Assembly (NCBI GenBank): GCA_963812085.1
Contig: CAWETL010000009.1
Location: 374,592 to 438,591, forward strand
Source: an uncultured Gemmatimonadales bacterium
Lineage (GTDB): Bacteria; Gemmatimonadota; Gemmatimonadetes; Gemmatimonadales; GWC2-71-9
Length of the DNA: 64,000 bases
Reading direction: 5' to 3'
In this document: piece by piece, positions 9,675-56,156 of the stretch
Layout: each line of letters starts with the position of its first letter
Numbering within the stretch: the first letter of the stretch is position 1
Translations under genes and position numbers: made by a program
Notes under the pieces: model-generated
The model's database searches: none
Seen by the model: only the letters and a program-made list of their open reading frames with translations
What the model was told of the DNA's origin: nothing

Positions 9675-9688
9675 GGATGATCGGGCAG

Positions 9689-9726
9689 GATTGCTTCGGC
9701 CACTGCGTGGCCTCGCAATGACGGAA
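9689..9726. repeat. solo hairpin arm, type A (reverse orientation) of the TTCTGTCATTGCGAGG repeat family
   Basis: The sequence is GATTGCTTCGGCCACTGCGTGGCCTCGCAATGACGGAA. It lies between the convergent stops of the methyltransferase gene and etfA. Confidence 0.8.
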
Positions 9727-9757
9727 ATGGGCGAGCCCCAACCGCGACCGGTCGATC

Positions 9758-26494: not shown

Positions 26495-27746
26495 CAGCCA
26501 CGCTCCGCTGGCGCGCCGCCGCCACCAGCCGGTGGCACTCGTCCTCCGCCAGCGTCCGGTCGGCCCGCTTGGCCGCCGAGAAGAGCGCCTCGGCCACCGC
26601 CGCCTCCTCCGGGTCGTATCCGTGTTCCTCGAGCCAGCATTTGACGTTCGACAACCCGGACACCGGCGAGATCTCGATCCGCTGGCGGAAGCCGAACGTC
26701 GCCGCCGGCACGCTCGAATAGACCCGGTCGGCCAGCCACTCGTCGCCCTTCTTGCGGGCCTTGATGATGGCCGCGGCGTGCACGCCCGTGGCGGTGCGGA
26801 AGGCGTCGGAGCCCACGACCGGGTACTGGGCAGGCACGGGGATGCCCGTAGCCTCCGAGACCAGTCGGCAGTACTCGCTCAGTTTCGACAGGTCCCCGGT
26901 GTGGAGCCCGAGCAGGAAGAGATTCACGATGAGGAGGTCCATCTCGGCGTTGCCGACCCGCTCCCCGATGCCCAGCGCGGTGCCGTGCACCCGGTCCACG
27001 CCCGCCTCGATGGCGGCGAGGCAGTTGGCCACGCCGAGGCCGCGGTCGCGGTGGCCGTGCCAGTCGATCTTCACCGATTCGCCGGACGGCGTGACGATCT
27101 CGTCCTGCACGAAGCGGATCAGCGACCGCACCCCGGCGGGCGTGGCGAAGCCGACGGTGTCGGCCAGGCAGATGCGGCGGGCGCCGCACCGGATGGCGGC
27201 GCCGTAGAGCGCCTTGAGGGTCTCGGGGCGCGCGCGGGTGGTATCCTCGGTGACGTACATGACCGGGAGGCCGTGGGACACGGCGTAGTTCACCGCCTCC
27301 TCGGAGACCCGGAGCATCTTGTCGAGCGTCCAGTCCTCGGTGTACTGGCGGATGCTCGAGGACCCGATGAACGTGGCCGCCTCGATCGGCACGCCCACCT
27401 CGTCCGACACGCGCACGATCGGCTCCACGTCGGCGACGACGGTGCGGGCGGCGCAGTTCATGTCGATGGGGAGCTTCTGGTCCACGATCTCGCGAGCGAG
27501 GGCGCGCACCTGGGCCACCGCGCGCGGGCCCGCGCCGGGCAGGCCGATGTCGGCCGCGCGCACGCCGAGGTCCGCCATGAGGTGGAGCAGGCGGATCTTC
27601 ACCTCCATCGGCGGATCGATGACGGAGGGACTCTGCAGCCCGTCGCGCAGCGTCTCGTCGTTCAGGACCACCCGGGAACGGGCGTAGTCGTACCCGCCGC
27701 CCTGAGCGTTCCAGTCGAAGACGAGTTCGTCGCGGTTCATGGTCAT
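26478..27746 (-). CDS. 2-isopropylmalate synthase / homocitrate synthase family (HMGL-like) enzyme
   Basis: LNDETLRDGLQS and HGHRDRGLGVANCLAAIEAG motifs. The start is ATG 27746 or 27740; the ORF-track N-extension to 27827 is a translation of the repeat element. Confidence 0.8.
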   Translation of the reverse strand: MTMNRDELVFDWNAQGGGYDYARSRVVLNDETLRDGLQSPSVIDPPMEVKIRLLHLMADLGVRAADIGLPGAGPRAVAQVRALAREIVDQKLPIDMNCAARTVVADVEPIVRVSDEVGVPIEAATFIGSSSIRQYTEDWTLDKMLRVSEEAVNYAVSHGLPVMYVTEDTTRARPETLKALYGAAIRCGARRICLADTVGFATPAGVRSLIRFVQDEIVTPSGESVKIDWHGHRDRGLGVANCLAAIEAGVDRVHGTALGIGERVGNAEMDLLIVNLFLLGLHTGDLSKLSEYCRLVSEATGIPVPAQYPVVGSDAFRTATGVHAAAIIKARKKGDEWLADRVYSSVPAATFGFRQRIEISPVSGLSNVKCWLEEHGYDPEEAAVAEALFSAAKRADRTLAEDECHRLVAAARQRSVADASTH

Positions 27747-27791
27747 AGTCTCACGTCTAGAGGTGCTCGGCACAAGTGGGAGCCCGCCCCA

Positions 27792-27881
27792 TTCTGTCAT
27801 TGCGAGGCCGCGAAGCGGCCGAAGCAATCTGGCCCGAGATTGCTTCGTCGGGCCCGCTGGGCCCTCCTCGCAATGACAGAA
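27792..27881. repeat. complete ~90-bp element of the hairpin repeat family (arm A forward + arm B reverse)
   Basis: Sequence: TTCTGTCATTGCGAGGCCGCGAAGCGGCCGAAGCAATCTggcccGAGATTGCTTCGTCGGGCCCGCTGGGCCCTCCTCGCAATGACAGAA. It is intercistronic, between the pyrophosphorylase stop and the leuA-like start. Confidence 0.85.
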
Positions 27882-27902
27882 CGCTGCGGCCGCGCACCGC
27901 AG

Positions 27903-28880: not shown

Positions 28881-29233
28881 CAGCTCCCCCGGCCGTAGCG
28901 GTCGGAGAGGCGGACCAGGTCGTCCAGCTCGGGCGTCGAGGCTTCCAGCACGTCGCTGTCCACCACCGCCTCGATCTGGTGCACCAGTCCGGCGGGGATG
29001 TGGACCGACTCGCCGGCGCGGAAGGCGCGCGCAACCAACTCGTCGCCGGGCCGGGTCCGCAGGATCAGCTCGCCGGAGAGGACGTGCATCGTCTCGTCCT
29101 TCTTGTTGTGGTACTGCAGGCTCAGCACATGGCCCGCCTTCACGTGCAGCACCTTGCCCACGTAGCGGTCGGTCCGGGCCCAGATGAGTTCGTGACCCCA
29201 CGGCTTGTCCACCCGGTATGGCACGTCCGGCAT
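28880..29233 (-). CDS. cupin domain protein (mannose-6-phosphate isomerase type II-like)
   Basis: From ATG 29233: KPWGHELIWA...KAGHVLSLQYHNKKDETMHVLSG is a cupin motif. 1-nt overlaps with both neighbours. Confidence 0.7.
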   Translation of the reverse strand: MPDVPYRVDKPWGHELIWARTDRYVGKVLHVKAGHVLSLQYHNKKDETMHVLSGELILRTRPGDELVARAFRAGESVHIPAGLVHQIEAVVDSDVLEASTPELDDLVRLSDRYGRGS

Positions 29234-29817
29234 CAAGTCTCCACCATGCGAAGTTTGAAGGAAGACGGCGACGTCACGCACGCGCGGACGCACACCCCGC
29301 ATCCGACGCAGCCCTCGGCCCGGATGACCGGGTGCCCGGCGTCGTCCATGGACAGCGCCCGCTCGCCGATCGGGCAGGCCTTGGCACAGACGCCACATTC
29401 CGACCCGTGAAAGGTGATGCACCGCTCAGGCAGGAGCTCGAGGACACCGAGGTGCTGGCCGACCCACCCGCTCGCCGGGACCGTCAGCGCCTCGGTCGGG
29501 CAGGCCGCCGCGCACGGCATGTCCGGGCAGGCGATGCACGGCTGCAGCTTCGGGTCGAAGAACGGCGTGCCGGCCGCGAGCCCCGCGCTCGGCGCGGCGA
29601 ACTGGATCGCGTGCGGCGGGCAGACCGGGCCGCAGGCGCCGCAGCGCGTGCAGGCAGTCAGGAACCCCACCTCCGGCAGCGCGCCCGGCGGCCGGAAGTA
29701 GCGCTGCTGGATGACGGTGTTTTCGGCCTTCTCGACCAGATTCTCGATCCAGTCGCCGACCATGTCGCGGAAGAAACCCCGCCGGTCGCCGCCGCGTCTA
29801 TCCCAGGGCCCGGTCAT
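29233..29817 (-). CDS. NapF/MauM-like ferredoxin-type protein with multiple 4Fe-4S motifs
   Basis: RRGFFR...RPPGALPE..FLTACTRCGACGPVCP matches the NapF-like N-terminus. Further clusters are CIACPDMPCAAACP, CGVCAKACP and CVGCGVCVRAC. Confidence 0.75.
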   Translation of the reverse strand: MTGPWDRRGGDRRGFFRDMVGDWIENLVEKAENTVIQQRYFRPPGALPEVGFLTACTRCGACGPVCPPHAIQFAAPSAGLAAGTPFFDPKLQPCIACPDMPCAAACPTEALTVPASGWVGQHLGVLELLPERCITFHGSECGVCAKACPIGERALSMDDAGHPVIRAEGCVGCGVCVRACVTSPSSFKLRMVET

Positions 29818-29844
29818 GCAGGAAGTCTAGCTGGCACGACCACT

Positions 29845-29942
29845 TTCTGTCATCGCGCGGCCATAACCCCTTCTGTCATTGCGAGGCCCCGACCCCATCT
29901 GTCATTGCGAGGCCCCTCGGAGCCCCTTCTGTCATCGCGAGG
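29845..29942 (+). repeat. tandem array of four truncated terminal motifs (stubs) of the hairpin repeat family
   Basis: TTCTGTCATCGCGCGG (29845), TTCTGTCATTGCGAGG (29871), ATCTGTCATTGCGAGG (29897) and TTCTGTCATCGCGAGG (29927). The full arm A follows at 29953, giving periods of 26/26/30/26 nt. Confidence 0.85.
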
Positions 29943-29952
29943 CGACAACCCC

Positions 29953-30382
29953 TTCTGTCATTGCGAGGCCACGCAGTGGCCGAAGCAATCTCAACGGCTG
30001 GTTGCGCCCTAGTTGATGCTGGCGTGCAACCATGGACCCATGCCTGGCCGCCGCTGCTATTTCGTCTACCTCCTCACCAACTCCAGCCGGCGCGTCCTGT
30101 ACACCGGCGTCACTCGGGACCTGCAGCGTCGCGTGGCTCAACACAGGGCGGGTAGAGGAGGGGCGTTCACGGCCCGATATCGAGTGAGGCATCTCGTATG
30201 GTTCGAGGCCCACGAGAACCCTGTGAGCGCCATCCTTCGCGAAAAGCAACTCAAGGCCGGCCCTCGGCACCGAAAGCTCGCCCTGATCCAGGCCATGAAC
30301 CCGACGTGGCGGGACCTCTGGGAAGAGTTGTAGACCGAGATTGCTTCGTCGGCCCCTTCGGGGCCTCCTCGCAATGACAAAA
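29953..30382 (+). mobile_element. candidate autonomous unit: arm A (29953-29992) - GIY-YIG ORF - arm B reverse (30337-30382)
   Basis: It has the same arm pair and orientation as the ~90-bp coding-free elements, but with a 98-aa nuclease ORF between the arms. Mobility is inferred, not shown. Confidence 0.4.
30040..30333 (+). CDS. GIY-YIG nuclease family protein (YhbQ/UPF0213-like)
   Basis: CYFVYLLT (GIY-type), RVLYTGVT (YIG), RRVAQH and REKQLK motifs in about 98 aa. Alternative upstream starts are TTG 30013 and ATG 30016. Confidence 0.85.
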   Translation: MPGRRCYFVYLLTNSSRRVLYTGVTRDLQRRVAQHRAGRGGAFTARYRVRHLVWFEAHENPVSAILREKQLKAGPRHRKLALIQAMNPTWRDLWEEL

Positions 30383-30396
30383 TGTCGGCCTCACCC

Positions 30397-30497
30397 TTCT
30401 GTCATTGCAGGGCCGCGCAGTGGCCGAAGCAATCTCGATGGTCGTGGATCGAGATTGCTTCGTCGGCCCCTGGCGGGGCCTCCTCGCAATGACAGAA
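30397..30497. repeat. complete 101-bp element of the hairpin repeat family (arm A forward + 14-nt spacer + arm B reverse)
   Basis: Sequence: TTCTGTCATTGCAGGGCCGCGCAGTGGCCGAAGCAATCTC-gatggtcgtggatc-GAGATTGCTTCGTCGGCCCCTGGCGGGGCCTCCTCGCAATGACAGAA. Confidence 0.85.
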
Positions 30498-30508
30498 CAA
30501 TCGTACCC

Positions 30509-33484
30509 CTAGATGGCCGGCGCGAAACTCAACACCCACCGGAAGCCCACCTGGTCGGCGGGATGCGTATCCTGCGCCAGTGAGGGCACGCTCACCCACA
30601 GCGGCACGTCGAACCGCGTCACAAACGAAGTGCCGCCGATCTTGTGCGATGCGCTCACCCCGATGCCGGCGTCGCCGAACACGCGGAGCGGGCCGTAGGT
30701 GGCGCTTCCGGTCGGCGGATCGCTGAGCGCCACGTCGCCAAAGGCGCCGACGGTGACCTTGTTGAACAGGTGGGCGCCGTTCCGGAGGACGAGGGTGCGG
30801 TCGAGCTGGGCGTTGAGCGCGTAGGCCTGCCGCGCGCTCAGGCGCGGGTCGAGCCCGCGCATGTTGGCGCCGCCCGGCGCCTGGTAGTAGAACCCCGGGC
30901 GCACCAGCAGCGCGCCTTCGGAGCGCAGGAACGGATTGTACAGCTGCTCGTACGGGTCGGCCCCGCCGAGGTACACCTGCCGCTGCTTGACGAGCGCATC
31001 CTTGGCCAGGGCGATGCCGGCGTAGCCGCGGAACGCGACCGCCATCTTCTTGCCCAGCGGGCGGCGCGCGGTGCCCACCAGCGAGGCCCGAAGGTATCCC
31101 TGGGTGTCGTAGCGGTCCTGGGTGCTGACGCCGGGGCCCTGGTTGTCGTACATCACGCCGCCGCCGAGCGACCCGTTCGTCCCAAGCTGCCAGGCGCCGC
31201 TCCGGTTGCTCACGCCGCCGTAGAGCGTGGCCTCGACCGTGCCGGCGTCCTGGTAGTAGCCGGGGTCGAGGAACGCCATGTTGGTCGTCGTGACCCAGCG
31301 GAGGGAAAGCCCCTGGGTGACGGTGGGCCCGAAGGTGAAGTGGTCGCGCCGCTTCTTCTCGAGGATGACCGTGGCGCCGGCGCGCCCTTCCATCGAGAAG
31401 CCCTCGAAGACCTGGCTCATGTTGGTCGAACGGAGTGCGGTCGGGTTCTTGACCCGGGCAAAGACGTCCAGCGTGCGCACCGGGTCGTCCGCGCCCCAGC
31501 CGGTGCCGCCGGTGATCGAGAGGACGTTCTGGTCGAACCGACCGAGATAGTCGCTCCGGCTCCGGAGGCCGAGCGTCACGCCGCCGGCGTCGTTGTACCA
31601 GCCCTCAGGTGCGAGGCCCAGCGTCATGTGGTCGCGGGCGGTCCTGGTGGAGAAGTAGGTGTCGAGGTACGGCTCGACCCGCCCCGGGTTGGAGAACAGC
31701 CCGAACGACTTGTGGTTGTTGAGGAAGTTCCAGTCGCCGGTCTGGACCCTGGGGTCGAGCGTCACGCCCTTCGGCTCGCTGTTGGTGTGGACTTCCACCC
31801 ACTCCCGCTCCGCCGTCCCGACCGACCGCACCGTGGCGGTGTCGGTGGCGCCTGCCACCTGCACCTCGACCGGAAGCTGCCGCGGCGCCTTCCGCAGCAC
31901 TTCCACCCGGGTCGTCCAGCCGCCGTCGGGGTTCCGCGCCTTGCTCGTCCGCCCGACGGCGTAGTCGGTCAGGTCCACGGCGTGGAGTTGCTGGGCAAAG
32001 AACGGCCCCAGCGGCTGGCGTGACGTGGCCTCGGCCACGGCGCGAAAGCGATCCTCGTTCACGTGGCGCAGCTTCCACTGGGCGTAGTAGTTGTGGAGCA
32101 CGTTCTGCATCGTGGTGTCGCCAAGTACGTACTGCAGGCGGCGGAGGAACAGCTCGCCACCGGAATAGATGCTCATGTTGTAGGTGAAGAAGTCCCGGTA
32201 GTCGTTGCTCACCATGCTCGTGGGCTCGGCGTAGCCGTCGAGCTGCAGTCCCAGCAGGAAGCGTTCGGTGCCGGCCACGCCGCCGGCGCCGCCGTGAGCG
32301 TCGGCGAACAGTCCTTCCTGGTAGGAGGTGAAGCCCTCGTCGAGCCATCCCTCACGCCATTCGTTGTTGGCCAGGATGCCCATCACGTAGTTGTGCCCGC
32401 CCTCGTGGACGATCAGCCCCTGCCCTGCCGAGCCGTCCATGATCATCATGGGGAATTCGGTGCCGCCCCCCTCGATCCGGTGCACGTTGGTGAACTGCGG
32501 CCAGGGAAACGTCCCGAAAGTCTGGTCCAGCCAGGCGAGGGCCGTTTCGGTGCGCTGGACGGCCACGCCACCGCCCCAGCTCTTCTCGTCGCCGGGTTGG
32601 TAGAGCACATGGACCACGACGTTGCCCCACTTCCCGCCCTCGTAACGGTAGTCCGGATTGAGCGACATCGCGAAGTGGTGCACGTCCGCGGCGTACCAGG
32701 TGACGACCTTTCGCCCCGGGGCGGCGGACGCCGTGGCGCAGCCGAAGCGCGCCGGATCGCCGTAGAAATCGCGCCGGTAGTCGATCGGTCGGCCCGGCTG
32801 GCGGCTCGCGCGAGCCCAGCCCGGGTCGCCGCAGACGGGAACGCCCGTCGCACCGATCACCTCGTCCTCGGGCACGTCGAGCCGGACCAGGAAGGTGCCG
32901 AACTCCCCGTAGAACTCGCCGGCCGGGTACAGCGCGTGCTCCTCCCAGCCGTACTGGTCGTACACCACCACCCGCGGATACCACTGCGCAAAGTCGAAGG
33001 CCCGGCCTCGGCGCCCCTGCCGCCGCGGTGGGATGGAAGGCCGCGCGTCCCAGTTCATCTCGGCGACGAGCGAGTCTCCGGGCGCCAACGGACGGGGGAG
33101 CATGAACCGCACGATCGTGCTGTCGGGCGCGAAGGGATAGATGGCCTCGACCGGCTGGCCCATGATCCGCACGTTCCGGACGTGGTTGAAGCCGTAGTTC
33201 GGGTCCTTGAGGTCGTTGTACCGGCGATTGTGCTCCACCGAGTCCGCGGCGGCCCAGCGGCTCCCGGGACGGAAGGCGTTGAGGTAGAGATGGAAGCTCA
33301 GCTGGCGGAGGGTGTCCGGCGAGTTGTTCCGGTAGAGCACCTCCTGGCGCCCGCTCAGGACGCCCTTGGGCTCGTCGAGCGAGGCGTCGATCTGGTAGGC
33401 CACGAATTGCTGCCAGTACGGCGCGGGCCCGGTGCCGGGCGTGGCCTGCTGGAGGCTGGCGAGCGCAACGAGGGCGAGGAGCAT
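30509..33484 (-). CDS. M1 family metallopeptidase with ~450-aa C-terminal extension
   Basis: HEGGHNYVMGILANNEWREGWLDEGF (HExxH-18-E) and an upstream GGTEFP (GxMEN-like) motif. The N-terminal LLALVALASLQQA looks signal-like. The C-terminal half has an alternating beta-strand-like pattern. Confidence 0.8.
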   Translation of the reverse strand: MLLALVALASLQQATPGTGPAPYWQQFVAYQIDASLDEPKGVLSGRQEVLYRNNSPDTLRQLSFHLYLNAFRPGSRWAAADSVEHNRRYNDLKDPNYGFNHVRNVRIMGQPVEAIYPFAPDSTIVRFMLPRPLAPGDSLVAEMNWDARPSIPPRRQGRRGRAFDFAQWYPRVVVYDQYGWEEHALYPAGEFYGEFGTFLVRLDVPEDEVIGATGVPVCGDPGWARASRQPGRPIDYRRDFYGDPARFGCATASAAPGRKVVTWYAADVHHFAMSLNPDYRYEGGKWGNVVVHVLYQPGDEKSWGGGVAVQRTETALAWLDQTFGTFPWPQFTNVHRIEGGGTEFPMMIMDGSAGQGLIVHEGGHNYVMGILANNEWREGWLDEGFTSYQEGLFADAHGGAGGVAGTERFLLGLQLDGYAEPTSMVSNDYRDFFTYNMSIYSGGELFLRRLQYVLGDTTMQNVLHNYYAQWKLRHVNEDRFRAVAEATSRQPLGPFFAQQLHAVDLTDYAVGRTSKARNPDGGWTTRVEVLRKAPRQLPVEVQVAGATDTATVRSVGTAEREWVEVHTNSEPKGVTLDPRVQTGDWNFLNNHKSFGLFSNPGRVEPYLDTYFSTRTARDHMTLGLAPEGWYNDAGGVTLGLRSRSDYLGRFDQNVLSITGGTGWGADDPVRTLDVFARVKNPTALRSTNMSQVFEGFSMEGRAGATVILEKKRRDHFTFGPTVTQGLSLRWVTTTNMAFLDPGYYQDAGTVEATLYGGVSNRSGAWQLGTNGSLGGGVMYDNQGPGVSTQDRYDTQGYLRASLVGTARRPLGKKMAVAFRGYAGIALAKDALVKQRQVYLGGADPYEQLYNPFLRSEGALLVRPGFYYQAPGGANMRGLDPRLSARQAYALNAQLDRTLVLRNGAHLFNKVTVGAFGDVALSDPPTGSATYGPLRVFGDAGIGVSASHKIGGTSFVTRFDVPLWVSVPSLAQDTHPADQVGFRWVLSFAPAI

Positions 33485-34960: not shown

Positions 34961-35149
34961 GTGTCGATCCTGTTCAATGAGTGGAGATGTCTGGTTGTCG
35001 CGCCACCCGGTCCGGCGCCGCGTCTCCCGCGCGGCCCATCCCGGCGGCCCGCCATCGGCTCCTCGCGGAGCCAGCGGGCGCATCATCCGCCGTCCGGCGG
35101 ACTACGATCAACCCCGGCGGCGGCAGCGCGCGGCGCCGGGGGCCCTGCC

Positions 35150-35235
35150 TTCTGTCATTGCGAGGAGGCCCCTCGGGGCCGACGAAGCAACCTCGGGCCA
35201 GATTGCTTCGGCCACCACGTGGCCTCGCAATGACA
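35150..35235. repeat. complete 86-bp element of the hairpin repeat family, flipped (arm B forward + arm A reverse)
   Basis: Sequence: TTCTGTCATTGCGAGGAGGCCCCTCGGGGCCGACGAAGCAACCTCgggccAGATTGCTTCGGCCACCACGTGGCCTCGCAATGACA. It lies between the atpB stop and the atpE start. Confidence 0.85.
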
Positions 35236-35259
35236 CAAGCGAACTGTGCTGCGCACTCC

Positions 35260-50550: not shown

Positions 50551-50590
50551 GAGATTGCGTCGGCCGCGACGCGGCCTCGCAATGACAGAA
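50551..50590. repeat. solo hairpin arm, type A (reverse orientation)
   Basis: The sequence is GAGATTGCGTCGGCCGCGACGCGGCCTCGCAATGACAGAA. It lies between the argF stop and the gcvT start. Confidence 0.8.
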
Positions 50591-50610
50591 GCGAATCGTG
50601 TCCGGCCTGC

Positions 50611-56093: not shown

Positions 56094-56112
56094 GAGTGCA
56101 AATCCCCAACCA

Positions 56113-56150
56113 GGTTGCTCCGACCGCCACGCGGCCTCGCAATGACAGAA
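56113..56150. repeat. solo hairpin arm, type A (reverse orientation, degenerate inner end)
   Basis: The sequence is GGTTGCTCCGACCGCCACGCGGCCTCGCAATGACAGAA. It lies between the xerC stop and the hslV start. Confidence 0.7.
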
Positions 56151-56156
56151 ATCAGC

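What the first reader, a model, noticed from the sequence alone, without database searches (positions are those of the whole stretch)
29845..29992. One-sided tandem array of five terminal motifs with ~26-nt periodicity at the left end of the GIY-YIG unit
Copies of (T/A)TCTGTCAT(T/C)GCG(A/C)GG start at 29845, 29871, 29897, 29927 and 29953. The last is the complete arm A. Spacings are 26/26/30/26 nt, and each copy is preceded by a C-rich spacer (..CCCC..).

No comparable array exists at the right end or at any dispersed element. Iterated end-motifs on one side recall the multiple transposase-binding sites at Tn7/Mu-type ends. They could also be products of repeated abortive insertion or replication slippage. 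Either way this is a local hot spot.
Basis: seen in the sequence. Interest (0 to 1): 0.55.

Follow-up and report, generated by a model that had tools for sequence, protein, structure and literature searches.

The report
Tandem half-hairpin repeats beside Ssn-like nuclease
Five head-to-tail copies of the first half of a known bacterial hairpin repeat sit next to the small single-strand-DNA nuclease gene that goes with such hairpins; they look like strain-variable copying scars rather than a working part, although the same lopsided pattern recurs across many bacterial phyla.

Summary
There are five direct copies of TCTGTCATYGCGMGG at 29846, 29872, 29898, 29928 and 29954, spaced 26/26/30/26. Only the last copy is a complete hairpin.

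The hairpin is a TGTC/CGTC-tagged REP of the kind paired with Ssn nucleases, which are single-domain GIY-YIG enzymes that cut single-stranded DNA 5' of the tag (Chenal 2025). The 97-aa gene at 30040-30333 lies between two inverted copies, the published NTS-ssnA-NTS layout.

Each extra unit holds a pyrimidine-rich leader, the tag, the first strand of the stem and about 3 loop bases. It lacks the second strand, so it cannot fold alone.

- **Strain variation:** ten syntenic metagenome loci (about 93% identical) carry one unit fewer, an exact 30-nt indel.
- **Not a fixed end feature:** most related GIY-YIG units have no extra units, and those that do have them at either end.
- **Polarity:** arrays of first halves occur in many phyla and are about 7-10 times commoner than arrays of second halves.

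A Tn7/Mu-type multi-site end is not supported. Most likely this is a non-essential scar array, made on the side where Ssn cuts and truncated where the GC-rich inner stem begins, then resized by slippage. The system is known; the polar half-site arrays appear undescribed.

The parts
29820..29844 (+). Possible decayed outermost unit ('unit 0'): GGAAGTCTAGCTGGCACGACCACT resembles a unit (GTC.T.GC..GGC.ACGACC.C). Low certainty.
   Evidence: Direct reading. The flank GGCACGACCAC resembles the inter-unit junction CCACGACCCC.
29845..29870 (+). Half unit 1 (TTTCTGTCATCGCGCGGCCATAACCCC region). It is the most diverged unit. Its ATCGC no longer complements the single GCAAT second half.
   Evidence: It is orthologous in the ten related loci.
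29871..29896 (+). Half unit 2: TTCTGTCATTGCGAGGCC + CCGA + CCCC.
29897..29926 (+). Half unit 3 (30 nt: ATCTGTCATTGCGAGGCCCCTCGGAGCCCC). This is the unit absent from all ten orthologous loci. Its inner part resembles the second hairpin subtype, GGCCCCTCGGGGCC.
   Evidence: One search shows a 30-nt gap that corresponds to one repeat unit. One search shows the 35151 element used for comparison.
29927..29952 (+). Half unit 4: TTCTGTCATCGCGAGGCG + ACAA + CCCC.
   Evidence: The window has ATCGC where the relatives have ATTGC.
29953..29992 (+). Complete left hairpin (arm A): leader TTCT, tag GTC, outer stem ATTGC/GCAAT, GA/GAA internal loop, inner stem GGCC(AC)/(GT)GGCC, tail CTC.
   Evidence: Fold (-9.2 kcal/mol, z = -2.4). 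Inner-stem covariation across the family is shown.
30040..30333 (+). Single-domain GIY-YIG nuclease gene (97 aa; alternative starts at 30016 and 30013). It is an Ssn-like candidate.
   Evidence: Pfam PF01541, E = 7e-14, no other domain. The best PDB match is UPF0213 1ZG2, weakly. Homologues are named GIY-YIG nuclease family protein in Gemmatimonadota. The orthologue is 94/97 identical.
30337..30382 (-). Complete right hairpin (arm A'), inverted relative to arm A. It is the second subtype, with the longer GGCCCC/GGGGCC inner stem.
30394..30498 (.). Adjacent gene-less pair of inverted hairpins (head-to-head dimer). In related strains this position carries 1-2 extra half units and extra dimers.
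   Evidence: Fold (-40.7 kcal/mol, z = -8.6). Strain comparison.
29824..29853 (-). Promoter-like site facing the divergent ferredoxin gene. The -35 ATGACA is the reverse complement of TGTCAT in half unit 1. The -10 TAGACT ends 6 nt before the ATG at 29817.
   Evidence: This is a consensus match only.
29233..29817 (-). Divergent NapG/MauM-like 4Fe-4S ferredoxin gene that bounds the array on the left.
   Evidence: It is syntenic in L201-L210.

Best explanation
**What it is**
- The array is four truncated 'first-half' copies of a TGTC/CGTC-tagged REP-type hairpin repeat. They are stacked head to tail on the tag (5') side of the complete hairpin that flanks an Ssn-like single-domain GIY-YIG nuclease gene.
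- Each unit is the first ~26 nt of the element: a pyrimidine-rich leader, the GTC tag, the first strand of the outer stem (ATTGCGAGG) and a few bases of the inner stem and loop.
- The units lack the second strand (GAAGCAAT). They cannot fold on their own and are not needed by the element.

**How it most likely arose**
- The array is best read as scar tissue. Errors of replication or repair (microhomology-mediated duplication or templated insertion) recur on the one side of the hairpin where Ssn-type nucleases are known to cut single-stranded DNA.
- The re-copied segment ends where synthesis meets the stable GC-rich inner stem.
- Once two units exist, slipped-strand mispairing adds or removes whole units. 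This accounts for the 4-versus-5 copy difference between strains.

**Shown and inferred**
- Shown: the anatomy, polarity, truncation point, facultative occurrence, strain polymorphism and phylogenetic breadth.
- Inferred: that Ssn cleavage and hairpin stalling set the two unit boundaries.
For: **Identity of the repeat and gene**
- Tag TGTC 56% and CGTC 35% of 531 distinct hairpins.
- C immediately after the palindrome in 97%, and a pyrimidine-rich leader at -8..-1.
- The inner stem covaries: 4 of 5 pairs show double changes, and 0 of 500 shuffles reach the observed score.
- The gene is a 97-aa GIY-YIG-only protein between inverted hairpins. This matches the NTS-ssnA-NTS layout and the tag and C determinants reported for Ssn (PMC11893778), and the CGTC-REP description (PMC3733652).

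**Polarity**
- Half units followed by a full hairpin: 33 + 8 + 1 runs. Full hairpin followed by half units: 0 + 1 runs.
- First-half to first-half adjacency 73-74, against second-half to second-half 7-10, in 64 non-redundant protein-ascertained loci.

**Truncation point**
- Half units share a median of 2 nt (IQR 0-4) beyond GTCATTGCGAGG with the full hairpin, so they end at the foot of the inner stem.
- In this lineage every junction reads GGCC-ACG | ACCCC-TTCTGTC.

**Facultative**
- 43 of 45 left arms and 40 of 45 right arms of related GIY-YIG units lack half units.
- Only 8 of 120 array loci have a GIY-YIG gene nearby.

**Dynamic**
- There is an exact 30-nt one-unit indel against ten independent syntenic assemblies.
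- The right side of the same locus varies in half-unit and element number.
- Related copies elsewhere differ by about one repeat unit (35-38 nt).

**Slippage signatures**
- The window flank GGCACGACCAC resembles the inter-unit junction, and the hairpin loop starts CCACG.
- Eight clean tandem duplications show 0-17 nt of microhomology, for example in L021, L038 and L077.

**Drift**
- Orthologous half units differ at about 5 of 78 nt. The two full hairpins differ at about 1 of 86. The locus as a whole differs by about 7%.
- Half units 1 and 4 carry ATCGC, which cannot pair with the only GCAAT.

**Breadth**
Against: - **Most founding events are not simple tandem duplications.** In 99 of 107 distinct half-plus-full pairs, the periodic match is shorter than one period. 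The half unit has its own leader, unrelated to that of the full copy. Sometimes it has a different hairpin subtype from its neighbour (L036, L045, L057). Plain slippage therefore cannot explain how most arrays start.
- **Generic hairpin stalling should be symmetric.** The 7-10-fold polarity needs an extra asymmetry. I attribute it to Ssn cleavage without direct evidence.
- **The boundary does not match the one mapped cut site.** The unit's left boundary lies about 9-12 nt 5' of GTC. My reading of the paper puts the Neisseria SsnA cut site about 5 nt 5' of GTC.
- **Possible constraint on the motif.** The 12-nt motif stays intact in half units whose leaders are unrelated. This could reflect selection or gene conversion.
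- **No orientation bias.** Arrays show no bias relative to local GC skew: 59 versus 76, p = 0.17.
Confidence: 0.58

Rival explanations
1. Nested or serial insertion. Each half unit is the remnant of a once-complete hairpin element that was destroyed when a new copy, carrying its own leader, inserted into or just past its first half. On this reading the array records successive insertion events of a mobile SRM/REP element at a preferred target inside itself.
For: - In most pairs the half unit and the adjacent full copy have unrelated leaders. Mean identity is 4.5 of 10, against 2.9 for random pairs.
- Some half units are of a different hairpin subtype from the neighbouring full copy (L036, L045, L057; window unit 3 versus units 2 and 4).
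- The truncation position is constant.
- Elements cluster, and whole dimers and a second GIY-YIG unit appear side by side in related strains.
- The Ssn authors raise the hypothesis that NTS-ssnA-NTS is a mobile element.
Against: - The displaced second halves that a true insertion would leave downstream are almost never seen: second-half to second-half adjacency is 7-10, against 73-74 for first halves.
- No target-site duplications are visible at the window's elements (direct reading).
- No transposition activity is known for Ssn. It cuts only one strand, on one side of the hairpin.
- Internal units of long arrays are near-identical, linkers included, which fits slippage.
Confidence: 0.2
2. Functional half-site array. 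The first halves act as extra Ssn recognition and cleavage sites when paired with the single second half in cis (looping out the intervening units), or with second halves in trans. This would tune single-strand DNA cleavage, recombination or expression at this locus.
For: - In vitro, SsnA cuts split hairpins made from separate first-half and second-half oligonucleotides.
- It tolerates extensions at the loop position.
- It digests a rolling-circle concatemer of first halves once a second-half oligonucleotide is added (PMC11893778).
- Each natural unit keeps about 9-12 nt of leader plus the GTC tag and first stem strand. That is roughly the published minimal cleavable 5' portion.
- The motif is better kept than the loop-derived 4-nt filler within the window array.
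Against: - Arrays are absent from most related units and occur at either end.
- Half units 1 and 4 carry ATCGC, which mismatches the only GCAAT.
- Orthologous half units diverge at about the background rate.
- Distal units decay: the proximal unit is more similar than the distal unit in 35 arrays, against 8 the other way, p = 4e-5.
- The array strand has no predicted structure beyond the terminal hairpin (z = +0.17 and +0.74).
Confidence: 0.12
3. Tn7/Mu-type transposon end. The iterated motifs are multiple transposase-binding sites that define an asymmetric left end of a GIY-YIG-encoding transposon.
For: - Several direct copies of the terminal motif lie on one side of this particular unit.
- The outer 16 nt of the two arms form terminal inverted repeats.
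Against: - The extra copies lie outside the complete terminal repeat and are missing from 43 of 45 related left ends.
- They occur mostly at gene-less hairpins.
- No DDE transposase or accessory genes are present. The only protein is a 97-aa GIY-YIG domain.
- The characterised relatives of this protein act on single-stranded hairpins, not on duplex end sites.
Confidence: 0.03
4. Regulatory by-product that has been co-opted. The outermost half unit supplies an outward-facing -35 hexamer (ATGACA) for the divergent NapG-like ferredoxin gene, so at least that unit is kept for promoter function.
For: - A promoter-like site on the minus strand: -35 ATGACA, an 18-nt spacer, and -10 TAGACT ending 6 nt before the ATG. 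One such site was found, against 0.1 expected.
- This part is conserved in all ten related loci, with a 17-nt spacer there.
Against: - This is a consensus match only. Promoter rules for Gemmatimonadota are not established.
- It explains one unit, not the array or its polarity elsewhere.
Confidence: 0.05

Closest known systems
Ssn nucleases with NTS/SRM hairpin repeats (Chenal et al., Nat Commun 2025, PMC11893778)
   Same: - A single-domain GIY-YIG protein of about 95 aa lies between inverted hairpin repeats.
- The repeat has an unpaired GTC tag 5' of a palindrome that starts A-T, T-A, and a C right after the palindrome.
- There are many gene-less copies, mostly as outward-tagged inverted pairs.
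- The paper's synthetic concatemer of first halves is the laboratory counterpart of this natural array.
   Different: - The stem sequence (ATTGCGAGG...CGAAGCAAT, with a GA/GAA internal loop) does not match the published SRM search pattern: 0 of 651 hairpins match.
- Membership of the protein in CDD cd10448 could not be tested.
- Natural tandem arrays of first halves are not mentioned in the paper ('tandem' has 0 occurrences).
CGTC-tagged REP superfamily (Di Nocera et al., BMC Genomics 2013, PMC3733652; includes Neisseria dRS3 and Rickettsia RPE-4/6)
   Same: - The terminal tag is CGTC, often changed to TGTC.
- The stem begins with A-T pairs and is followed by a short unpaired tail.
- Head-to-head dimers predominate, often as heterodimers of two subtypes.
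- Distribution is wide, and no transposase is associated.
   Different: - The stem here has two tiers with an internal loop, rather than the described 8-9 bp stem with a 4-5 nt loop.
- The tail is mostly CTC rather than CCA.
- The paper reports head-to-tail dimers as negligible and does not describe truncated half-unit arrays.
REP/BIME-RAYT (REPIN) systems
   Same: - Short extragenic palindromes with an unpaired tag occur singly and as inverted pairs.
- They flank one dedicated nuclease gene.
- They are thought to act as single-stranded hairpins.
   Different: - The enzyme is a GIY-YIG nuclease, not a HUH Y1 transposase.
- The tag is GTC, not GTAG.
- Polar arrays of half palindromes are not a described feature of BIMEs, which alternate whole REPs.
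Slippage-driven minisatellites and modular repeats such as pneumococcal BOX (variable boxB number)
   Same: A sub-module of a dispersed repeat is iterated head to tail, and its copy number differs between strains by whole units.
   Different: - The iterated module is the outer terminal half, not an internal one.
- It always lies on one side of an intact hairpin.
- Most founding events are not simple duplications.
Tn7 and Mu transposon ends with multiple transposase-binding sites
   Same: Several direct copies of an end-related motif lie on one side.
   Different: - The sites lie outside the element end.
- They are facultative.
- There is no DDE transposase.
- The related enzymes recognise single-stranded hairpins.

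Membership tests
Ssn nuclease / SRM repeat system | Single-domain GIY-YIG protein of roughly 90-150 aa | tested here: met
   The protein is 97 aa. Pfam PF01541 covers residues 6-73, E = 7e-14, with no other domain.
Ssn nuclease / SRM repeat system | Top CDD hit cd10448, or blastp E < 1e-10 to N. meningitidis SsnA (CAX49033.1) | not testable with these tools
   Neither CDD nor the SsnA sequence was available. The only PDB match is UPF0213 1ZG2, at E = 3e-4.
Ssn nuclease / SRM repeat system | Gene flanked on both sides, within 500 bp, by inverted hairpin repeats | tested here: met
   The arms lie at 29953-29992 (+) and 30337-30382 (-). Of 63 related gene copies scored (from 64 non-redundant loci), 45 have a left arm and 44 have a right arm.
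Ssn nuclease / SRM repeat system | Repeat matches the published SRM search pattern HGTCWYN(0-2)YYVSBRHN(0-5)WNVSBRGN(0-2)RNCYNB | tested here: not met
   0 of 651 hairpins of this type match. The Neisseria NTS control does match.
Ssn nuclease / SRM repeat system | Oriented hairpin: unpaired GTC 5' of the palindrome (needed for cutting) and C immediately 3' of it (needed for binding) | tested here: met
   Tags are TGTC or CGTC in 91%. C is at +1 in 97%. GTC itself was part of my search pattern.
Ssn nuclease / SRM repeat system | Cuts only single-stranded DNA, only one strand, a few nt 5' of the tag | not testable with these tools
   This needs biochemistry. It is known for four homologues (PMC11893778).
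CGTC-tagged REP superfamily | Unpaired terminal CGTC (or TGTC/CCTC) tag, and a stem starting with A-T, T-A | tested here: met
   The outer helix columns 7/34 and 8/33 are A-T and T-A in all 51 sequences, though the outer helix was required by my selection.
CGTC-tagged REP superfamily | Stem of 8-9 bp, loop of 4-5 nt, 3-nt tail close to CCA | tested here: inconclusive
   The stem here is 5 bp, then a GA/GAA internal loop, then 4-6 bp. Loops are 3-7 nt. The tail is CTC in 46% and CCA in 16%.
CGTC-tagged REP superfamily | Head-to-head dimers predominant, head-to-tail dimers negligible | tested here: met
   The window has three tag-outward dimers plus the gene-bearing unit. Tandem full-full runs are rare: 5-7. 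The half-unit arrays are the exception under study.
Tn7/Mu-type multi-site transposon end | Multiple binding sites present in the ends of all copies of the element | tested here: not met
   43 of 45 left arms and 40 of 45 right arms of related units have none.
Tn7/Mu-type multi-site transposon end | Element encodes a DDE transposase (TnsB/MuA type) | tested here: not met
   Only a GIY-YIG domain protein lies between the arms.
REP-RAYT (REPIN) system | Flanked gene is a HUH Y1 (IS200/IS605-like) transposase, and the REP carries a GTAG tag | tested here: not met
   The gene is GIY-YIG. The tag is T/CGTC.
Simple slippage tandem repeat (VNTR) | Head-to-tail units with whole-unit copy-number differences between strains | tested here: met
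   TRF reports period 26 and 4.8 copies. There is a 30-nt one-unit indel against ten orthologous loci.
Simple slippage tandem repeat (VNTR) | Founding event is a complete tandem duplication, with periodicity spanning at least one full period including the first unit's flank | tested here: inconclusive
   In the window, the flank GGCACGACCAC resembles the linkers. Family-wide, only 8 of 107 half-plus-full pairs qualify.
CRISPR array | Repeats of 24-48 nt separated by unique spacers of similar size, with cas genes or a leader | tested here: not met
   The period is 26-30 nt, with only 4-8 variable nt between conserved parts. There was no Rfam hit.

The most novel reading that the evidence does not exclude
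The polar first-half arrays are in vivo scars of Ssn action on chromosomal single-stranded DNA. Cleavage 5' of the tag, together with arrest at the inner stem, delimits a ~26-nt segment that is re-copied or captured.

If so, the thousands of such arrays in public genomes record where, on which strand and how often these nucleases cut their own genome. They would also expose the copying step by which the 'transposase-less' CGTC-REP/SRM repeats multiply.
Probability: 0.25. Interest if true: 0.7.

Novelty: new variant of a known kind. Interest (0 to 1): 0.42.

Why it matters
- **Open questions this bears on.** The hairpin and nuclease pair is already described: CGTC-tagged REPs in 2013 and the Ssn nucleases in 2025. 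What Ssn does outside Neisseria, and how its repeats multiply without a transposase, remain open.
- **A side-specific process.** The strictly polar, truncated half-site arrays show that some process acts on one side and one strand of these hairpins in many phyla.
- **A genomic read-out.** If that process is Ssn cleavage, the arrays give a read-out of nuclease activity and a direct handle on repeat proliferation.
- **Missed repeats.** The published SRM search pattern misses this very widespread ATTGCGAGG...CGAAGCAAT class, so current counts of Ssn-related repeats are underestimates.
- **For this window alone.** The array is an ordinary, moderately stable intergenic polymorphism.

Tried and rejected
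- **Rfam.** Neither gathering thresholds nor E <= 10 gave a relevant family.
- **Folding the array.** As single-stranded DNA on either strand, it has no structure beyond the terminal hairpin (z = +0.17 and +0.74). An RNA or DNA structural role for the array itself was dropped.
- **Exact-protein look-ups.** The ferredoxin, the 97-aa GIY-YIG, a neighbouring gene and P0001 were not on record. The cluster member P0121 then gave the orthologous loci.
- **Literature.**
  - Searches by sequence string and by GIY-YIG plus REP, MITE, TIR or COG2827 found nothing relevant.
  - The two key papers came from 'CGTC-tagged' and from 'GIY-YIG + extragenic'.
  - Their supplements hold no sequences, or are not held at all.
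- **Simple tandem duplication as the general founding event.** This was rejected for the majority: 99 of 107 half-plus-full pairs do not fit.
- **True nested insertion that leaves the displaced second half downstream.** This was rejected because second-half runs are rare.
- **Deletion inside tandem full hairpins.** It fits L071 by eye but not the window or most others.
- **Orientation of arrays relative to replication, using local GC skew.** No signal was found: 59 versus 76, p = 0.17. The 8-kb loci are too short for this test.
- **CRISPR-like and iteron readings.** Both were rejected on period, spacer size and context.
- **Unrelated scan hits.** A few hits of the genome scan are GC-rich coding repeats, not hairpin arrays (L010, L094, L116).
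Full report
**Observation**

The region reads as five direct copies of (T/A)TCTGTCATYGCGMGG at 29846, 29872, 29898, 29928 and 29954, spaced 26/26/30/26 nt.
- Tandem Repeats Finder reports 29845-29972, period 26, 4.8 copies, score 150. This is the strongest tandem repeat in the 64-kb window.
- The 15-mer occurs 16 times in the window at up to 2 mismatches, against 1.06 expected.
- Only the last copy continues into a second half: GAAGCAATCT occurs in this region only at 29982.
- That last copy folds as a hairpin: ATTGC / GA / GGCCAC-loop-GTGGCC / GAA / GCAAT.
- No other run of this kind exists in the window.

**What the repeated unit is**

The same ~40-nt hairpin occurs in three settings:
- alone, at 9688-9728, 50552-50592 and 56110-56152;
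- as inverted pairs with the motif on the outside, at 27789-27882, 30394-30498 and 35148-35240;
- once on each side of a 97-aa ORF, at 29953-29992 and 30337-30382.

Other properties:
- The ORF is a GIY-YIG domain and nothing else (Pfam PF01541, E = 7e-14).
- The paired elements fold into a very stable cloverleaf or cruciform. It has a 16-bp outer stem, two side hairpins and a central stem, at -38 to -41 kcal/mol with z about -8.5.
- Across 51 hairpins of equal length from many genomes, four of the five inner-stem pairs show compensatory changes. No shuffle out of 500 reaches the observed covariation. The outer helix was required by my selection and carries no weight.

**The system is known**

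Two papers describe it.

Di Nocera et al. 2013 (PMC3733652) defined CGTC-tagged REPs. They describe:
- an unpaired CGTC tag, often TGTC;
- a stem starting with A-T pairs;
- a short tail;
- head-to-head dimers;
- no associated transposase.

Chenal et al. 2025 (PMC11893778) showed the following:
- Single-domain GIY-YIG proteins of about 94 aa (the Ssn family, CDD cd10448) are typically flanked by such hairpins (NTS/SRM).
- They bind the hairpin only as single-stranded DNA and only on one strand.
- They cut a few nucleotides 5' of the tag.
- The GTC is critical for cutting, and the C just after the palindrome is critical for binding.

My data fit this architecture:
- The tag is TGTC in 56% and CGTC in 35% of 531 distinct hairpins.
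- C is at +1 in 97%.
- A pyrimidine-rich leader lies at -8..-1.
- Homologues are annotated as GIY-YIG nuclease family proteins in Gemmatimonadota, Devosia and Sphingomicrobium.

Two caveats apply:
- The published SRM search pattern matches none of 651 hairpins of this ATTGCGAGG...CGAAGCAAT class.
- I could not test assignment to cd10448. The only PDB relative is UPF0213 1ZG2, at E = 3e-4.

I therefore treat the locus as an Ssn-like gene with a divergent class of SRM/CGTC-REP repeat.

**What the array is**

Each extra unit is the first ~26 nt of the element: leader (A)CCCCTTCT, tag GTC, first stem strand ATTGCGAGGCC and about three loop bases. It then joins directly to the next leader. The units lack the second strand and cannot fold alone. 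The array strand shows no structure beyond the terminal hairpin.

**Is it peculiar to this locus?**

No. These come from Proteobacteria, Bacteroidota, Chloroflexota, Planctomycetota, Omnitrophota, Firmicutes, Spirochaetes, Actinomycetota and candidate phyla. Arrays hold 2 to 11 units with a median period of 27 nt. Nearly all consist of truncated units followed by one complete hairpin.

A second, unbiased sample comprised 80 loci found through the protein, 64 of them non-redundant.
- Runs read half units then full hairpin 42 times, and the reverse once.
- First-half to first-half adjacency outnumbers second-half to second-half by 73-74 to 7-10.
- Half units share a median of 2 nt (IQR 0-4) beyond GTCATTGCGAGG with the full hairpin. 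They end where the GC-rich inner stem begins, which is also the branch point of the cloverleaf.
- The unit next to the full hairpin resembles it more than the outermost unit does: 35 arrays against 8, p = 4e-5.

**Is it part of the element's end?**

No.
- Among related GIY-YIG units, 43 of 45 recognisable left arms and 40 of 45 right arms have no adjacent half unit. Where present there is one, on either side. The window's four is the largest number seen.
- Only 8 of the 120 array-ascertained loci have a GIY-YIG ORF nearby.

'One-sided' is therefore true of this locus only. The general rule is polarity relative to the hairpin.

**Strain comparison**

A protein 94/97 identical to the window's lies on contigs from ten different metagenome samples. 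These contigs have the same gene order: NTP-transferase, cupin, 194-aa ferredoxin, array, GIY-YIG, M1 peptidase. They are about 93% identical in nucleotide sequence.
- All ten have three half units plus the full hairpin. The window has one more, an exact 30-nt indel equal to unit 3.
- Units 1, 2 and 4 are orthologous, so the array predates the split of these lineages and is only moderately unstable.
- Orthologous half units differ at about 5 of 78 positions. The two full hairpins differ at about 1 of 86. The locus as a whole differs by about 7%.
- Units 1 and 4 carry ATCGC, which cannot pair with the only GCAAT. This looks like drift rather than constraint.
- To the right of the gene, the ten contigs differ from the window and from each other in half units (0, 1 or 2), in extra inverted pairs, and in two contigs by a second GIY-YIG unit in tandem.

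The intergenic region is a genuine hot spot, and the array is not an assembly artefact.

**How the arrays arise**

For the window, a simple microhomology-mediated tandem duplication followed by slippage fits. The flank before unit 1 (GGCACGACCAC) resembles the inter-unit junction (CCACGACCCC), and the hairpin loop begins CCACG. Clean examples of this kind exist elsewhere, with 0-17 nt of microhomology, for instance in L021, L038 and L077.

This is not the general founding route.
- In 99 of 107 distinct half-plus-full pairs, the half unit has its own leader, unrelated to that of the full copy.
- Sometimes the half unit has a different hairpin subtype from the full copy.
- True nested insertion is also unlikely, because displaced second halves are almost never found.

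What remains constant is the side (5' of the tag) and the truncation point (the foot of the inner stem). The known biochemistry offers a natural asymmetry, since Ssn cuts only the tagged strand, only 5' of the hairpin.

I infer that breaks or nicks made there, repaired by re-copying that stalls at the stable inner stem, seed the first extra unit. The route would be templated insertion or microhomology-mediated duplication. Slippage then changes the unit number.

This step is inference, and two results do not help it:
- The unit's left boundary lies 9-12 nt from GTC. That does not coincide with my reading of the Neisseria cut site, about 5 nt from GTC.
- A GC-skew test for strand bias was uninformative.

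**Rivals**

- A functional half-site array is conceivable. SsnA cuts split hairpins, and it cuts a synthetic concatemer of first halves when the second half is supplied. The facultative occurrence, the drift and the distal decay argue against this reading.
- A Tn7/Mu-type end is contradicted on every defining feature tested.
- The outermost unit may contribute a -35 hexamer (ATGACA) to a promoter-like site for the divergent ferredoxin gene. That would explain one unit at most.

**Verdict**

- The 'multiple transposase-binding sites' half is not.
- The underlying system is already known. The polar arrays of first halves, and the fact that this abundant hairpin class escapes the published search pattern, appear to be undescribed.
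- The arrays are of moderate interest as a possible genomic trace of Ssn activity.

Noticed in passing
window 29824-29853 (minus strand): A promoter-like site formed partly by half unit 1. The -35 ATGACA is the reverse complement of TGTCAT, followed by an 18-nt spacer and a -10 TAGACT that ends 6 nt before the ATG (29817) of the NapG-like ferredoxin gene. There is no Shine-Dalgarno sequence, so the transcript could be leaderless. Every copy of the repeat carries this outward-facing ATGACA.
   Followed up: partly
L201-L210, right of the GIY-YIG gene (e.g. L201:1795-2110, L206:1795-2161); window 30383-30508: Ten orthologous metagenome contigs show at least three structural variants here. There are one or two extra inverted hairpin pairs (a ~115-nt tandem duplication of pair plus junction). 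There are one or two half units in front of them. In L206 and L207 a second GIY-YIG unit follows in tandem.
   Followed up: partly
all loci L001-L200 and window hairpins: The SRM search pattern published for Ssn-related repeats matches 0 of 651 hairpins of the ATTGCGAGG...CGAAGCAAT class. Yet this class flanks GIY-YIG genes in many phyla, so published SRM counts probably miss a large repeat class.
   Followed up: yes
window 27786-27885, 30390-30500, 35148-35240: The inverted pairs are heterodimers of two hairpin subtypes: a short GGCC inner stem and a longer GGCCCC/GGGCCC stem with GACGAAG. As single strands they fold into a cloverleaf with a 16-bp outer stem (z about -8.5). In the 35148 element the order of subtypes is reversed.
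   Followed up: partly
L045, L057 (Oscillospiraceae), L036: Some half units are truncated later, after the whole inner hairpin (GAGGAGCGAAGCGACG|), and are of a different subtype from the full hairpin that follows. They are therefore not copies of their neighbour.
   Followed up: partly
L006, L047, L048, L073, L080, L087: In a subset of arrays with period 29-33, the linker after the half unit reads GAGATTCCT(C/T)CGC. This resembles an inverted second half (GAGATTGCTTCG), so it seems to be a separate class of rearranged unit.
   Followed up: no
window 29879-30016 (+), 27739-27876 (+), 30341-30583 (+) and others: Open reading frames run through the repeats and yield peptides such as ...FCHCEA...SVIARPRSGRSNL... 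and ...LLAMT.... These are artefacts of the repeat and could be mis-called as small proteins.
   Followed up: no
L010, L094, L116: A few hits of the genome-wide pattern scan are GC-rich repeats (GGTCATCGCGCGG...) without any second half. They appear unrelated to the hairpin family.
   Followed up: no
L071 and L091 (two Gammaproteobacteria MAGs): These are the longest arrays seen: 11 and 8 units of 25-26 nt, nearly identical within each array. They share downstream sequence but have different upstream flanks and different unit numbers.
   Followed up: partly
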